Shown here: positions 49,418 through 51,878 of the stretch, in pieces | Position numbering within the stretch: position 1 is the first letter of the stretch | Layout: every line of letters starts with the position of its first letter | NCBI GenBank assembly: GCA_030612005.1 | Contig: JAUWOU010000003.1 | Location: 2,450-66,449, forward strand | Direction of reading: 5' to 3' | DNA from: Candidatus Thorarchaeota archaeon | Lineage (GTDB): Archaea; Asgardarchaeota; Thorarchaeia; Thorarchaeales; Thorarchaeaceae | Length of the DNA: 64,000 bases | Notes under the pieces: model-generated | What the model was told of the DNA's origin: nothing | The model's input: the letters and a program-made list of their open reading frames with translations, nothing else | Databases searched by the model: none | Made by a program: the position numbers and the translations under genes

Positions 49418-51052
49418 ATGAGTCAACAAGTACCGGTGATTGTTTTAAGAGAAGACACCGAGAGAACGCGTGGCCGTGACGCTCAGAGAAACAATATCAT
49501 GGCTGCAATAGTTATTTCTGACGCTGTCAAGTCATGTCTTGGACCAAAAGGAATGGACAAGATGCTAGTGGACAGTTTTGGAGATGTGACAGTTAGTAAC
49601 GATGGAGCAACAATTTTGAAAGAAATGGATGTACAACATCCTGCAGCTAAAATGGTCATCGAGGTTGCAAAGACCGTGGATGCTGAGGTAGGAGACGGAA
49701 CTACTACCGCTGCTATTCTGACTGGAGACCTCTTGAAGCAGGCAGAAATCCTACTCGATAAGGCAATCCATCCAACTACAATCATCAGTGGTTACAGAAA
49801 AGCTGCAGCTAAGGCTTTGGCAGTAGTTGATGATGTTGCAGAAACAGTTGATCCAGCGGCTGCTGATTACAAGAAGATTCTCATTGATGTGGCGAAGACA
49901 TCTATGTCAAGTAAGTTTGTTTCTGGAAATCGTGATACTCTTTCTAAGACCGTCGTAGACGCAGTACTTGCAATTGCAAAGGATATACCCGAGGGTGAAG
50001 AACTCAATATCGAGAATATCCCCCGTCAAAAGCAGACTGGAATGACTGTCGATAAGACCGAGCTAGTAAAGGGTCTTGTTCTTGACAAAGAAGTTGTACA
50101 CGCAGGAATGCCCAAGAAAATCGTGGGCGCAAAAATTGCACTCCTTGAATCAGCTCTTGAAGTATCCAAAACAGAGTTCGACGCAAAAATCTCAATCACA
50201 GATCCTTCAGCTATGACTAGCTTCCTCGACGAAGAAGATCGCATGCTGAAAGAGATGGTGAGCAAGATTGTCGAGTCTGGTGCAAACGTTGTCATTGCCC
50301 AAAAGGGAATTGATGATGTTATTCAGCACTATTTGGCTAAGGAAGGCATCATGGCAGTTCGACGAATCAAGAAGTCTGATGTGGAGAGAGTTCACAAGAC
50401 AACCGGTGCTGCAATTGTTTCAAAGATAAAGAACTTGACTGCAGCAGACCTAGGCAAAGCAAAGATTATCGAACAGAGGGAAGTTGCTGATGACAAGATG
50501 CTCTTCATTGAGGGCACACCAAAGTCAAGCGTCGTCACACTTCTAGTTCGTGGTGGAACTAGCCACATCGTTGATGAAGTAGACCGTGCACTGAACGATG
50601 CACTCTACGTCGTTAGAGATGTTGTTGTACATCCACAAATCAACTACGGTGGTGGTGCACTCGCTGCTGAGATTTCAAAGCAGCTAAGAGACTATTCATC
50701 AACCCTTGTGGGTCGTGAGCAATACGCAGTCAACTCCTTTGCTGATGCTATTGAGTCACTTCCAAACACACTTGCTGAAAACGCAGGGCTGGATCCCATT
50801 GATATTATTGTTAGTCTGAGGAAAGCACACACAGAGGGCAAGGTTAATCACGGCATCAACTACACAAAAGGAAAGGTTGATGACATGAAGAAAGCCCGAG
50901 TTATCGAGGCAGCTGTTGTCAACAGACAGATCATTATGTCTGCTGCAGAAGCAGCTCAAATGATTCTCAAGATCGACGATGTCATCAGCTCAAAGGGCGG
51001 CGGTATGGGAGGCGCTCCTGGCGGCGGAGATTTCGGCGGCGACGACGAATAG
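49418..51052 (+). CDS. ths: Thermosome subunit (group II chaperonin)
   Basis: '[19 protein letters not shown]' and 'GDGTTTA' motifs. C-terminal '[14 protein letters not shown]' tail. GGAGG RBS. Confidence 0.95.
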
Positions 51053-51078
51053 AAAGAGTCAAACGTAGAACGAATCAG

Positions 51079-51780
51079 GTGAAACTCATGTCAGACGGCT
51101 CTGAAAAGAAGAAAGAGAATGATACTCCAAAGGCAGAAGCAAAAGCGGAAGCAGAAGCACTAACTCCGGAAGAGAGTATCTCTCTTCTTACTAATATACC
51201 AGGCGTAGGACCTAAGACAGCTGAGAAGCTAGCGGAGTCAGGTTATGACACAATCAAAAAAGTGTCAGAGGCTGACAAAGAAGCTCTTGCAGCTGCAGTT
51301 ACTGGGCTAAGCGAAGCTAAAGCTGATGCAGTAATTGGAGAAGCCTTTGATCTTCAGGAGAAGATTGATTCGGGCGAAATTGATTTGAGTGCTAAAGCCA
51401 AATCCAAGAGGAAGAAGGCACCAGAGCCAGAACCCGACAAACATGATCTTCCAGCATTAGAAGAGATTACTCGTGCAGAGGAAAGAAAGAATCTGGTAAC
51501 GGGTTATGACTTAGATAAAGCAGCTATTGGCGTGACCATAGGTCCAAAATGGATGACAAAATACGAGAAAGCCCGTATTATTGGCGCACGTACTCTACAG
51601 ATTGCTATGGGAGCTCCAATCATGATTGATGTGAAAACAGCACCTATGTCTCGTTACGGCTTTGCTGAATTGGAACTTAAATCAGGATTGCTTCCTATGA
51701 CAGTTAGGAGATCCCTACCTACTGGTGAATTTATCGACGTTCCGTTAACGTTGTTGCTCAAGCATTCGAGGTTGGAATAA
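51079..51780 (+). CDS. rpoK: DNA-directed RNA polymerase subunit K (Rpo6/Rpb6) domain with an unusual N-terminal extension carrying an HhH motif and Lys/Ala/Glu-rich linker
   Basis: C-terminal 'MTKYEKARIIGARTLQIAMGAPIMIDVK...LLPMTVRRSLPTGEFIDV' matches the Rpb6/RpoK core. N-terminal 'LTNIPGVGPKTAEKLAESGYDTIKKV' is a helix-hairpin-helix. The reading frame is open throughout. Confidence 0.6.
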   Translation: MKLMSDGSEKKKENDTPKAEAKAEAEALTPEESISLLTNIPGVGPKTAEKLAESGYDTIKKVSEADKEALAAAVTGLSEAKADAVIGEAFDLQEKIDSGEIDLSAKAKSKRKKAPEPEPDKHDLPALEEITRAEERKNLVTGYDLDKAAIGVTIGPKWMTKYEKARIIGARTLQIAMGAPIMIDVKTAPMSRYGFAELELKSGLLPMTVRRSLPTGEFIDVPLTLLLKHSRLE

Positions 51781-51878
51781 TACCAACCTCCATCTTTTCT
51801 TTTTCATTTTATAATGTCATCATAATACGCCTTAAAAGAGAGGCATCATAAACTAATAGGTCCCAGTGGTGACATCAT

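What the first reader, a model, noticed from the sequence alone, without database searches (positions are those of the whole stretch)
51079..51780. RpoK/Rpb6 core fused to an N-terminal HhH and charged-linker extension, directly downstream of the thermosome
Archaeal RpoK is usually a ~60-110-aa stand-alone protein. Here the conserved Rpb6 core (TKYEKARIIGARTLQIAMGAP...VRRSLPTGEF) sits at the C-terminus of a 233-aa open frame. Its first ~140 residues contain a helix-hairpin-helix (IPGVGPKTAEKLAESGY) and a Lys/Ala/Glu-rich segment. Eukaryotic Rpb6 has an N-terminal charged tail, so this is either a real fusion or extension, or a mis-called start.
Basis: partly seen in the sequence, partly recalled or inferred. 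Interest (0 to 1): 0.6.

Follow-up and report, generated by a model that had tools for sequence, protein, structure and literature searches.

The report
Thorarchaeal RNA polymerase subunit Rpo6 with HhH arm
This is a real, conserved gene of Thorarchaeota (Asgard archaea) in which the small RNA polymerase subunit Rpo6/RpoK carries an extra helix-hairpin-helix domain on a flexible linker, probably a built-in DNA-gripping arm; the architecture has been noted once in the literature (2026), but its function has never been tested.

Summary
An ORF at 51079-51780 (+) lies 35 nt downstream of a thermosome gene. It encodes an acidic N-tail, a five-helix (HhH)2 domain, a disordered linker with an invariant SKRKK-x-PEPEP motif, and a C-terminal Rpo6/RpoK/Rpb6 core. 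The real start is almost certainly ATG 51088 (230 aa), because the GTG at 51079 lies inside the Shine-Dalgarno sequence.

It is neither a mis-called start nor a two-gene artefact. All 60 complete loci from Thorarchaeota species genomes carry one uninterrupted 216-243 aa ORF in the same gene neighbourhood. dN/dS is about 0.06 for the HhH domain, the linker and the core alike. The internal Met is Leu in 53 of 54 loci.

The thermosome-rpoK adjacency is shared with short RpoK genes of Bathyarchaeia, which suggests this is the ancestral rpoK copy.

A second Asgard lineage, Kariarchaeaceae (Heimdall group), attaches one or two (HhH)2 domains, or an H1-like (PAKKAAKK)n tail, to the opposite (C-terminal) end of Rpo6. 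That looks like an independent origin.

My best reading is a tethered, non-specific DNA-binding arm on the polymerase, analogous to the bacterial alpha-CTD. That function is inferred, not shown.

A 2026 paper (PMC13257274) already mentions the Thorarchaeota extension in one sentence, so the architecture is not new.

The parts
49418..51052 (+). Thermosome (group II chaperonin) gene, immediately upstream and probably co-transcribed with rpoK
   Evidence: Pfam Cpn60_TCP1 E 7e-170. Only 35 nt separate it from the rpoK ATG, and I see no AT-rich box in that spacer. The adjacency is conserved in Thorarchaeota loci, in L063 and in 9 Bathyarchaeia loci.
51077..51082 (+). Shine-Dalgarno AGGTGA, 5 nt upstream of the ATG; it contains the GTG that the mechanical ORF starts from
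   Evidence: An SD-like GGTG is present upstream of the aligned start in 59 of 60 loci.
51088..51780 (+). rpoK/rpo6 coding sequence, 230 aa plus TAA stop (HhH-Rpo6 fusion)
51088..51165 (+). Acidic or charged low-complexity N-tail (about aa 1-26), predicted disordered and fast-evolving
   Evidence: pLDDT below 50 for aa 1-23. Over aa 1-30, dN/dS is 0.42 and pI is 4.5. Length varies among homologues.
51166..51369 (+). (HhH)2 domain, aa 27-94: five helices with two hairpins (IPGVGPKT and TGLSEAK)
   Evidence: HHH_5 E 2.6e-13. AF2 helices at 27-34, 42-50, 56-60, 64-70 and 76-94. Foldseek matches the RadA N-terminal domain (1xu4, 2f1h, 3ntu) at rmsd 1.0-1.1 A and 44-45% identity. G39, V40, G41, P42, K43, T44, K47, G73, L74, S75 and K78 are invariant.
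51394..51450 (+). Conserved linear motif in the disordered linker, aa 103-121: KAKSKRKKAPEPEPDKHDL (basic patch followed by PEPEP-x-x-H-x-L)
   Evidence: S106, K107, R108, K109, K110, E113, P114, P116 and L121 are invariant in 56 sequences. pLDDT is below 50. Linker dN/dS is 0.066. The basic patch (aa 100-112) has pI 11.4.
51460..51522 (+). Helical lead-in (aa 125-145, EITRAEERKNLVTGYDLDKA); its last residues (from about aa 138) begin the alignment with the N-terminal part of Sulfolobus Rpo6
   Evidence: AF2 helices at 125-134 and 139-145. The phmmer alignment to 2y0s_I starts at residue 141 in 233-aa numbering, which is about aa 138 here.
51523..51777 (+). Rpo6/RpoK/Rpb6 core, aa 146-230
   Evidence: NF002207 at 84 bits, above its 71-bit cutoff. 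Foldseek matches Rpb6/Rpo6 chains at TM(target) 0.7-0.8 and rmsd about 2 A.
51553..51555 (+). Internal in-frame ATG (Met156); not a conserved start
   Evidence: Leu in at least 90% of homologues. The codon is CTN, TTG or TTA in 53 of 54 loci.
51793..51810 (+). T-rich run after the stop codon (tcttttctttttcatttt), a putative archaeal oligo-T terminator for the ths-rpoK unit
   Evidence: Read directly from the sequence. The terminator role is inferred.

Best explanation
This is the genuine Rpo6 (RpoK) subunit gene of a Thorarchaeota RNA polymerase, translated from ATG 51088 as a single 230-aa polypeptide. The C-terminal core assembles into the polymerase as in other archaea and eukaryotes.

The N-terminal 145 residues form an appendage. 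It has a short acidic tail, a RadA-N-terminal-domain-like (HhH)2 domain, and a roughly 50-residue flexible linker carrying an invariant basic SKRKK patch.

I propose that the HhH domain and the basic patch together act as a tethered, sequence-independent DNA-binding arm. Such an arm would raise the polymerase's hold on duplex DNA near the clamp base during promoter loading and/or elongation. This would be functionally analogous to the linker-tethered HhH-containing alpha-CTD of bacterial RNA polymerase, and to the HhH arrays that give Topo V extra DNA affinity.

Shown here: the fusion is real, conserved across the class, under purifying selection, and has an (HhH)2 fold.
Inferred: incorporation into the polymerase, DNA binding, and which DNA segment is contacted.
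For: Reality and conservation:
- More than 100 protein clusters at 90% identity, 57-94% identical, nearly all 219-262 aa, named Thorarchaeota RpoK.
- 62 species-level loci in the same GNAT-ARMT1-thermosome-rpoK-MgtC/DUF4010-HisRS neighbourhood.
- 60 of 60 complete loci have one ORF.
- dN/dS is 0.058 (HhH), 0.066 (linker) and 0.054 (core).

Orthology:
- NCBIfam equivalog above its cutoff.
- The thermosome-rpoK adjacency is shared with short rpoK genes in L063 and in Bathyarchaeia.

Fold:
- Five-helix (HhH)2 domain with no fixed position relative to the core (pTM 0.34) and a disordered linker.
- Matches to the RadA N-terminal domain and to Rpb6.

Evidence pointing to DNA binding:
- Lysines next to both hairpins (K43, K47, K78) and the SKRKK patch are invariant.
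- The nearest non-Rpo6 relatives of the domain are HhH arrays at the N-terminus of Topo VI subunit A, carried by Thorarchaeota themselves (P0125/P0429, seven HHH_5 units), and of ribosomal protein L32e. Both show the same 'HhH2 followed by a basic linker' pattern.
- Kariarchaeaceae (Heimdall group) independently carry one or two (HhH)2 domains at the C-terminus of Rpo6. At the same locus, Ca. Kariarchaeum pelagius instead carries a histone-H1-like (PAKKAAKK)n tail.
- Close relatives of this window duplicated the HhH-plus-linker module in tandem (P0001, P0002).
Against: - There is no experimental evidence for DNA binding or for incorporation into the polymerase.
- The HhH domain is net acidic in every family member (net charge -1 to -5, pI 4.6).
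- Acidic (HhH)2 domains such as NusA AR1/AR2 bind proteins, by established knowledge. The Kariarchaeaceae tandem domains' top structural match is in chains of bacterial transcription complexes whose length (492-495 aa) fits NusA, by my own identification.
- Model confidence for the HhH domain is only moderate (pLDDT 70-76).
- The one published AF3 model proposes contacts with Rpo5 and Rpo1 rather than with DNA (PMC13257274).
- I could not scan whole Thorarchaeota genomes for a second, canonical rpoK.
- The position of the Rpo6 N-terminus relative to DNA is taken from general knowledge of Pol II, where Rpb6 sits at the clamp base (PMC8754651). It was not computed here.
Confidence: 0.6

Rival explanations
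1. The HhH domain is a protein-protein recruitment platform rather than a DNA binder. It would dock a transcription, repair or chromatin factor onto the polymerase, as the eukaryotic Rpb6 N-terminal tail recruits TFIIH p62 and as the NusA acidic (HhH)2 repeats bind the alpha-CTD or lambda N.
For: - The domain is consistently net acidic.
- The Kariarchaeaceae tandem HhH2 best matches chains in E. coli transcription complexes whose length (492-495 aa) fits NusA, by my own identification (8y5l_NA, 6tqn_A, 6flq_F).
- Foldseek also lists a RAD51 N-terminal lobe bound to a histone H4 tail (8xbw).
- The eukaryotic Rpb6 tail is a documented recruitment site (PMC8754651).
- PMC13257274 suggests factor binding or intra-polymerase contacts.
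Against: - The hairpin-flanking lysines and the adjoining SKRKK patch are invariant.
- The closest relatives of the domain sit on DNA and RNA enzymes and show the same acidic-module-plus-basic-linker pattern.
- In Kariarchaeum the HhH tail is replaced at the same locus by an H1-like basic repeat, which points to nucleic-acid affinity as the selected property.
Confidence: 0.25
2. The appendage is an autoinhibitory or DNA-mimic element. The acidic tail and acidic HhH domain would occupy the DNA-binding cleft of free polymerase and be displaced on promoter loading.
For: - The N-tail (pI 4.5) and the HhH domain (pI 4.6) are both acidic.
- The tether is flexible.
- From my own recollection, unchecked here, the Rpb6 tail has been seen in the cleft of inactive Pol II.
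Against: - The N-tail is the least constrained part (dN/dS 0.42).
- A folded HhH domain with invariant lysines, plus a basic patch, is an odd DNA mimic.
- The tandem duplication of the module and the basic H1-like tail in Kariarchaeum do not fit mimicry.
Confidence: 0.08
3. It is an annotation or assembly artefact. Either a separate small HhH gene is fused to rpoK by a missed stop or frameshift, or translation really starts at the internal Met just before the core.
For: - A few database proteins contain only the HhH part (P0124, P0143, P0149).
- An in-frame ATG sits at 51553, with a weak AGGT 11 nt upstream.
Against: - 60 of 60 complete loci from independent assemblies have one continuous ORF.
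- The truncated proteins are +1 frame reads of the same DNA.
- The internal Met is Leu elsewhere.
- dN/dS of the extension equals that of the core.
- A conserved Shine-Dalgarno motif sits at the 5' ATG.
Confidence: 0.02
4. It is a paralogue of Rpo6 that is not the polymerase subunit. The real subunit would be a canonical short RpoK elsewhere in the genome, and this protein would use an Rpo6-like fold for another purpose.
For: I could not scan whole Thorarchaeota genomes. The genome scan used family-specific peptide patterns, so a divergent second copy would have been missed.
Against: - It scores above the NCBIfam equivalog cutoff.
- The core is under strong constraint.
- It occupies the same thermosome-adjacent position as the short RpoK genes of Bathyarchaeia and L063.
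- Each of the two complete Thorarchaeota chromosomes yielded one locus (L042, L045).
- The published survey treats it as the Thorarchaeota Rpo6 (PMC13257274).
Confidence: 0.05

Closest known systems
Archaeal Rpo6/RpoK, eukaryotic Rpb6 (RPABC2) and bacterial omega
   Same: The C-terminal 85-90 residues are a bona fide member. They carry the TKYE(K/R)ARIxGARALQ and LPMTVRRxLP motifs, pass the NCBIfam equivalog cutoff, and superpose on Rpb6/Rpo6 in solved polymerases.
   Different: Characterised archaeal RpoK proteins are 57-95 aa with no extra domain. Most archaeal RpoK and bacterial omega lack an N-terminal tail (PMC8754651). This protein has a 145-residue appendage with a folded domain.
Long Rpo6 form of Thorarchaeota described by Shematorova & Shpakovski 2026 (PMC13257274)
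   Same: It is the same protein family. [quoted passage not shown]
   Different: The paper gives one sentence and an AF3 model, and calls the domain helix-loop-helix. It does not report class-wide conservation, selection, the SKRKK-PEPEP motif, the similarity to the RadA N-terminal domain and Topo VI-A HhH arrays, the module duplication, or the reversed Kariarchaeaceae fusions.
Eukaryotic Rpb6 N-terminal tail
   Same: Both are N-terminal, flexible, acidic extensions of the same subunit. In eukaryotes the tail recruits TFIIH p62 (PMC8754651).
   Different: The eukaryotic tail is fully disordered with no HhH domain, and no sequence homology is evident. The closest non-HhH Asgard relative (P0126/L063) has a more Rpb6-like acidic tail.
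Bacterial RNA polymerase alpha C-terminal domain
   Same: It is an HhH-containing, DNA-binding domain tethered to the polymerase core by a flexible linker (established knowledge). The Kariarchaeaceae Rpo6 C-terminal HhH scores above the PF03118 cutoff, at 31.7 against 23.8 bits.
   Different: It sits on a different subunit (alpha, not omega/Rpo6), at a different terminus, with an independent origin. The window protein does not hit PF03118 at E <= 1. This is an analogy, not family membership.
RadA/Rad51 N-terminal (HhH)2 domain, and HhH arrays on Topo V, Topo VI-A and L32e
   Same: The best structural match is the RadA N-terminal domain (rmsd 1.0-1.1 A, 44-45% identity). The best sequence matches outside Rpo6 are the HhH arrays of Topo VI-A and L32e. 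Topo V HhH matches at E 1.6e-6.
   Different: There is no recombinase, topoisomerase or ribosomal moiety. Here the module is grafted onto a polymerase subunit.

Membership tests
Rpo6/RpoK/Rpb6 (RNA polymerase subunit K) | Sequence match to curated family models above their cutoffs | tested here: met
   NCBIfam NF002207 (equivalog) at 84 bits against a 71-bit cutoff, and NF002208 at 67.4 against 57. Pfam PF01192 is marginally below its cutoff (24.5 against 26 bits). Most homologues carry a precomputed PF01192 hit.
Rpo6/RpoK/Rpb6 (RNA polymerase subunit K) | Rpb6 fold as seen in solved polymerases | tested here: met
   Foldseek of the AF2 model matches Rpb6/Rpo6 chains at TM(target) 0.65-0.82 and rmsd about 2 A. 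The query is a predicted model with core pLDDT 73-85.
Rpo6/RpoK/Rpb6 (RNA polymerase subunit K) | It is the organism's orthologous copy (single copy, conserved position) | tested here: inconclusive
   The thermosome-rpoK adjacency is shared with short rpoK genes of L063 and Bathyarchaeia. There was one hit per complete Thorarchaeota chromosome. The scan was pattern-limited, so whole genomes were not searched.
Rpo6/RpoK/Rpb6 (RNA polymerase subunit K) | Physical incorporation at the Rpo1'/Rpo1'' interface of the polymerase | not testable with these tools
   This needs purification or cryo-EM of Thorarchaeota RNA polymerase.
(HhH)2 domain (Pfam HHH_5) | Two helix-hairpin-helix motifs joined by a connector helix (five helices) | tested here: met
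   HHH_5 at 50.7 bits against a 27-bit cutoff. There are five predicted helices, with hairpins at GVG (39-41) and GLS (73-75).
(HhH)2 domain (Pfam HHH_5) | Non-sequence-specific DNA backbone binding | not testable with these tools
   Indirect evidence only: invariant K43, K47, K78 and the SKRKK patch. The domain is net acidic.
RadA/Rad51 recombinase | RecA-type ATPase core following the N-terminal HhH domain | tested here: not met
   Only the N-terminal-domain region matches (TIGR02236 at 35.7 bits against a 361-bit cutoff). The rest of the protein is Rpo6.
Bacterial RNA polymerase alpha-CTD (PF03118) | Sequence membership in PF03118 | tested here: not met
   The window protein has no PF03118 hit at E <= 1. 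The Kariarchaeaceae protein P0275 does pass (31.7 against 23.8 bits), but under a stronger HHH_5 hit.
Eukaryotic-type Rpb6 N-terminal tail | Acidic, intrinsically disordered N-terminal tail that binds the TFIIH p62 PH domain | tested here: inconclusive
   Residues 1-30 are acidic (pI 4.5), residues 1-23 are predicted disordered, and the tail evolves fast. Partner binding cannot be tested here, and sequence homology to the eukaryotic tail was not tested.

The most novel reading that the evidence does not exclude
Asgard archaea have repeatedly turned the clamp-base subunit Rpo6 into a carrier for tethered nucleic-acid-binding modules. Thorarchaeia carry an N-terminal (HhH)2 plus a basic patch, sometimes duplicated. 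Kariarchaeaceae carry one or two C-terminal (HhH)2 domains. Ca. Kariarchaeum carries a C-terminal H1-like (PAKKAAKK)n tail. On this reading these polymerases have a built-in DNA grip, a convergent counterpart of the bacterial alpha-CTD. It would alter promoter loading or processivity, possibly on histone-bound templates. It would also show that Rpo6/Rpb6 termini were already used as functional platforms in the archaeal relatives of eukaryotes.
Probability: 0.4. Interest if true: 0.65.

Novelty: already known. Interest (0 to 1): 0.45.

Why it matters
Rpo6/Rpb6/omega is the one small subunit shared by all cellular RNA polymerases, and in archaea it is usually treated as a minimal assembly clamp.

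A folded nucleic-acid-binding-type domain hard-wired to it, conserved across a whole Asgard class and invented again at the other terminus in a Heimdall-group family, would mean these polymerases contact DNA or partners in a way no structurally characterised archaeal or eukaryotic enzyme does.

It offers a simple, testable system (wild-type versus truncated Rpo6 in a reconstituted enzyme) for asking how accessory DNA grips affect archaeal transcription. It also gives context for why eukaryotic Rpb6 has a functional N-terminal tail.

The gene family is already in databases as RpoK, and the extension was mentioned in a 2026 survey. The value therefore lies in the unresolved function and the convergence, not in discovery of the architecture.

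Tried and rejected
- **Internal start or RBS before the core.** Rejected. Met156 is not conserved.
- **Separate upstream gene or frameshift artefact.** Rejected. There is one ORF in 60 of 60 complete loci. The truncated database entries are +1 frame reads.
- **GTG 51079 as the start.** Rejected in favour of ATG 51088. Homologues share that N-terminus, and the GTG lies inside the Shine-Dalgarno motif.
- **RadA fragment or paralogue.** Rejected. Only the N-terminal-domain part matches.
- **Other HhH copies in the window as a possible donor.** None found by tblastn.
- **Naming divergent clusters through exact-sequence look-ups.** Few names came back. Neighbouring genes had to be used to place the reversed fusions in Kariarchaeaceae.
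- **Sigma-70 promoter scan.** Not run, because the tool does not cover archaeal promoters. Signals were read by eye.
- **Search for a second rpoK in complete Thorarchaeota genomes.** Not possible.
- **AF2 on the shallow Kariarchaeaceae alignment.** It modelled the two HhH2 domains well but not the core.
Full report
**1. What is there**

The window has a mechanical ORF at 51079-51780 on the + strand (233 aa from a GTG). It follows a thermosome gene (49418-51052; Pfam Cpn60_TCP1 E 7e-170) after a spacer of about 35 nt with no AT-rich box.

- The N-terminal half matches Pfam HHH_5 (aa 35-88, E 2.6e-13, 50.7 bits against a 27-bit cutoff).
- The C-terminal 85 residues match the NCBIfam RpoK equivalog NF002207 (84 bits against 71).
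- By phmmer, the same C-terminal part matches Sulfolobus Rpo6 (E 3e-14) and eukaryotic Rpb6 (about 1e-11) in solved polymerases.
- Pfam's own Rpb6 model is just under its threshold (24.5 against 26 bits).

**2. Start codon**

Homologues begin MSDGSE or MSEGSE. In 59 of 60 related loci a GGTG Shine-Dalgarno element lies a few nt upstream of that ATG.

In the window this element is AGGTGA at 51077-51082, followed by ATG at 51088. The GTG at 51079 is therefore part of the ribosome-binding site, and the protein is 230 aa. Residue numbers below use that start.

**3. Real fusion, not an artefact**

- A search of 5.8 billion proteins returned 196 hits. The best 120 are 57-94% identical and nearly all are 219-262 aa; the exceptions are two roughly 320-aa double-module forms and a few shorter or partial entries. 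Where they carry names, they are called Thorarchaeota RpoK.
- A scan of one genome per GTDB species gave 62 loci with the HhH-RpoK arrangement. They come from MAGs named Thorarchaeota or Promethearchaeota, one named Hermodarchaeota, and several deposited only as 'uncultured archaeon' or 'archaeon'.
- The two closest loci are 92-93% identical to the window protein, so the window is from a Thorarchaeota genome.
- All 60 complete loci have one uninterrupted ORF of 216-243 aa. They share the same neighbourhood: GNAT acetyltransferase, ARMT1-like phosphatase, thermosome, rpoK, MgtC/DUF4010, HisRS.
- Pairwise Nei-Gojobori dN/dS over 249 locus pairs is 0.42 for the N-tail, 0.058 for the HhH domain, 0.066 for the linker and 0.054 for the core. 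The extension is translated and is as constrained as the polymerase-binding core.
- The in-frame Met just before the core (Met156, codon 51553-51555) is Leu in at least 90% of 56 aligned homologues. Its codon is CTN, TTG or TTA in 53 of 54 loci.
- The few 'HhH-only' database proteins (P0124, P0143, P0149) end in the +1 frame translation of the same DNA, so they are assembly frameshifts.

**4. Anatomy**

AlphaFold2 with a 56-sequence alignment gave the following.

| Residues | Feature | Confidence |
|---|---|---|
| 1-23 | disordered tail | pLDDT below 50 |
| 27-94 | five-helix (HhH)2 domain | pLDDT 70-76 |
| 102-120 | disordered stretch | pLDDT below 50 |
| 125-145 | two short helices | intermediate |
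| 158-226 | Rpo6 core | pLDDT 73-85 |

The overall pTM is 0.34, which means the model fixes no orientation between the two folded parts.

Foldseek against the PDB matches the core to Rpb6/Rpo6 chains (TM(target) 0.65-0.82, rmsd about 2 A). It matches the HhH domain to the N-terminal domain of RadA recombinase (1xu4, 2f1h, 3ntu) at rmsd 1.0-1.1 A over 57-58 residues and 44-45% identity.

Invariant residues in the 56-sequence alignment include:
- both hairpins and their flanking lysines (I37, G39, V40, G41, P42, K43, T44, K47; G73, L74, S75, K78);
- a linear motif inside the 'linker', S106-K-R-K-K110 ... E113-P ... P116 ... L121.

More divergent family members keep a basic run followed by PEP(E/D)P and H-x-L-P. 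One example is RRRRRRAPEPDPDVHELP in L036. The linker is therefore not a mere spacer.

The HhH domain itself is net acidic in all family members (net -1 to -5, pI 4.6). The adjoining patch has pI 11.4.

**5. Evolutionary context**

An exhaustive HMMER search of 1.84 billion cluster representatives at 50% identity found only three other full-length clusters with the N-terminal HhH-RpoK arrangement (P0121, P0122, P0123). P0123 additionally has a roughly 70-residue acidic tail.

The closest RpoK without an HhH domain (P0126/L063, 151-153 aa) has an Rpb6-like acidic tail. It sits in the same thermosome-rpoK-MgtC-HisRS context.

Nine Bathyarchaeia loci also have a short rpoK directly downstream of a thermosome gene. 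The Thorarchaeota gene thus occupies what looks like an ancestral rpoK position. This argues that it is the orthologous subunit and that the HhH module was inserted into a pre-existing tail.

The nearest non-Rpo6 relatives of the module are N-terminal arrays of four to seven HHH_5 units on Topo VI subunit A. The seven-unit form is carried by Thorarchaeota themselves (P0125, cluster member MBS3794305.1). Four-unit arrays also occur on ribosomal protein L32e. In both, roughly neutral-to-acidic HhH2 units alternate with basic linkers, which is the same pattern as in Rpo6.

Two strains close to the window (P0001, P0002; different assemblies, same synteny) carry two HhH-plus-linker modules in tandem. 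The modules are 75-77% identical within each protein.

**6. An independent, reversed fusion**

Six protein clusters (P0161, P0275-P0278, P0157; 183-249 aa) have the Rpo6 core first and one or two (HhH)2 domains at the C-terminus.

- AF2 models both domains at pLDDT 82-88.
- One cluster member is annotated as RpoK of a Kariarchaeaceae archaeon, and the neighbouring genes are those of Ca. Kariarchaeum pelagius, a Heimdall-group lineage.
- At the same locus (RNB ribonuclease upstream, a 216-aa gene downstream), Ca. Kariarchaeum pelagius itself has an Rpo6 ending in a histone-H1-like (PAKKAAKK)n repeat of variable length.
- The Kariarchaeaceae and Thorarchaeota HhH domains are only about 30% identical and sit at opposite termini, so the fusions are probably independent.

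**7. How it most likely works**

Shown:
- one polypeptide;
- a conserved (HhH)2 domain;
- a conserved basic motif;
- a flexible tether;
- a bona fide Rpo6 core.

Inferred:
- The core assembles at the clamp base as Rpb6 does (PMC8754651).
- The appendage is a mobile, sequence-independent DNA-binding arm. This is analogous to the HhH-containing alpha-CTD of bacterial polymerase and to the HhH arrays of Topo V; I know from the literature that those arrays raise DNA affinity and processivity when grafted onto DNA polymerases, and I did not check this here.

The strongest indirect support is twofold. The same module decorates DNA and RNA enzymes in the same organisms. In Kariarchaeaceae the HhH tail is interchangeable with a classical basic nucleic-acid-binding repeat.

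I put the DNA-arm mechanism at about 0.5 and the identity as a genuine extended Rpo6 at more than 0.9.

The main rival, at about 0.25, is a protein-recruitment platform. It is supported by the domain's acidity and by the Kariarchaeaceae tandem domains' top structural match, to chains in E. coli transcription complexes whose length (492-495 aa) fits NusA (my identification). NusA's acidic (HhH)2 repeats bind proteins, by established knowledge. The documented recruitment role of the eukaryotic Rpb6 tail also supports it (PMC8754651).

Autoinhibition or DNA mimicry, a non-polymerase paralogue, and artefact are less likely (see the rival explanations).

**8. Comparison with what is known, and novelty**

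Characterised archaeal RpoK proteins are 57-95 aa, and 'most bacterial omega and archaeal RpoK ... lack NTT' (PMC8754651).

The Thorarchaeota extension has, however, already been noticed. [quoted passage not shown] They model contacts with Rpo5 and Rpo1. NCBI also annotates these proteins as RpoK.

The architecture is therefore already known. As far as two full-text searches show, the following are not in the literature:
- the class-wide conservation and selection data;
- the SKRKK-PEPEP motif;
- the affinities with the RadA N-terminal domain and Topo VI-A HhH arrays;
- the module duplication;
- the reversed Kariarchaeaceae fusions and the H1-like tail.

The function remains untested.

**9. 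Verdict**

This is a real, lineage-wide variant of a universal polymerase subunit. It is correctly spotted and correctly interpreted as a possible true fusion. Interest is moderate: a specialist would find the convergent decoration of Rpo6 in two Asgard lineages noteworthy and easy to test, but the core observation is published and annotated.

Noticed in passing
window 49418-51780; loci L001-L063 and Bathyarchaeia loci L064-L068, L071, L073, L078: The thermosome-rpoK adjacency (same strand, short spacer) is conserved across Thorarchaeota, in a related archaeon without the HhH domain (L063), and in 9 of 16 Bathyarchaeia loci. This suggests an old chaperonin-rpoK gene pair or operon. In L036 and L044 an unrelated 291-aa gene on the opposite strand is inserted between them.
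   Followed up: partly
L083 650-1612 (P0002) and L084 1305-2282 (P0001): Close relatives of the window (87% identity) carry two tandem HhH-plus-linker modules before the Rpo6 core (320-325 aa). The modules are 75-77% identical within each protein, the synteny is the same, and the two assemblies are independent.
   Followed up: yes
L080 5412-6134 (P0275); P0161, P0276-P0278, P0157: Kariarchaeaceae (Heimdall-group Asgard) Rpo6 has the reverse order: the core first, then one or two C-terminal (HhH)2 domains. This appears to be an independent fusion of the same two domain types.
   Followed up: yes
L082 10001-10462 (P0279); P0258: Ca. Kariarchaeum pelagius Rpo6 ends in a histone-H1-like (PAKKAAKK)n repeat. 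Cluster members range from 92 to 206 aa, some of them partial entries, so the repeat length appears variable. The gene sits at the same locus as the HhH-tailed orthologues.
   Followed up: partly
P0125 / P0429 (950 aa, Thorarchaeota) and P0129 (746 aa): Topo VI subunit A carries seven or four N-terminal HHH_5 modules separated by basic linkers. These are the closest non-Rpo6 relatives of the Rpo6 HhH domain and a possible donor.
   Followed up: partly
P0127 (444 aa) and P0257 (350 aa): Ribosomal protein L32e carries N-terminal HhH modules followed by basic K-rich linkers: four in P0127 by Pfam, about two in P0257 by eye. This resembles the single-module haloarchaeal L32e seen in PDB entries 1s72 and 1jj2. 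The source lineage was not identified.
   Followed up: no
P0232 (553 aa, Lokiarchaeia, HME52410.1): A protein annotated as nickel-dependent lactate racemase has an Rpo6 core as its last roughly 95 residues, preceded by an in-frame Met-Met. This could be a real LarA-Rpo6 fusion or a missing stop between two genes.
   Followed up: no
P0124, P0143, P0149, P0135: Database 'HhH-only' proteins are frameshifted reads of the fusion gene. P0124 breaks in the stretch encoding KSKRKK; the others break a little further downstream. They could mislead anyone looking for a split version of the gene.
   Followed up: yes
L024, L027-L029, L031-L033: One Thorarchaeota subclade has a degenerate first hairpin (NIQSVGPKN instead of NIPGVGPKT), with the first glycine of the G-h-G motif replaced by serine. 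One of these MAGs is labelled Hermodarchaeota.
   Followed up: no
P0160 (Nitrosocaldus), P0169, P0175: Other archaeal RpoK proteins of 175-188 aa have long lysine-rich, low-complexity N-terminal tails. This is another way of adding a basic tail to the same subunit.
   Followed up: no
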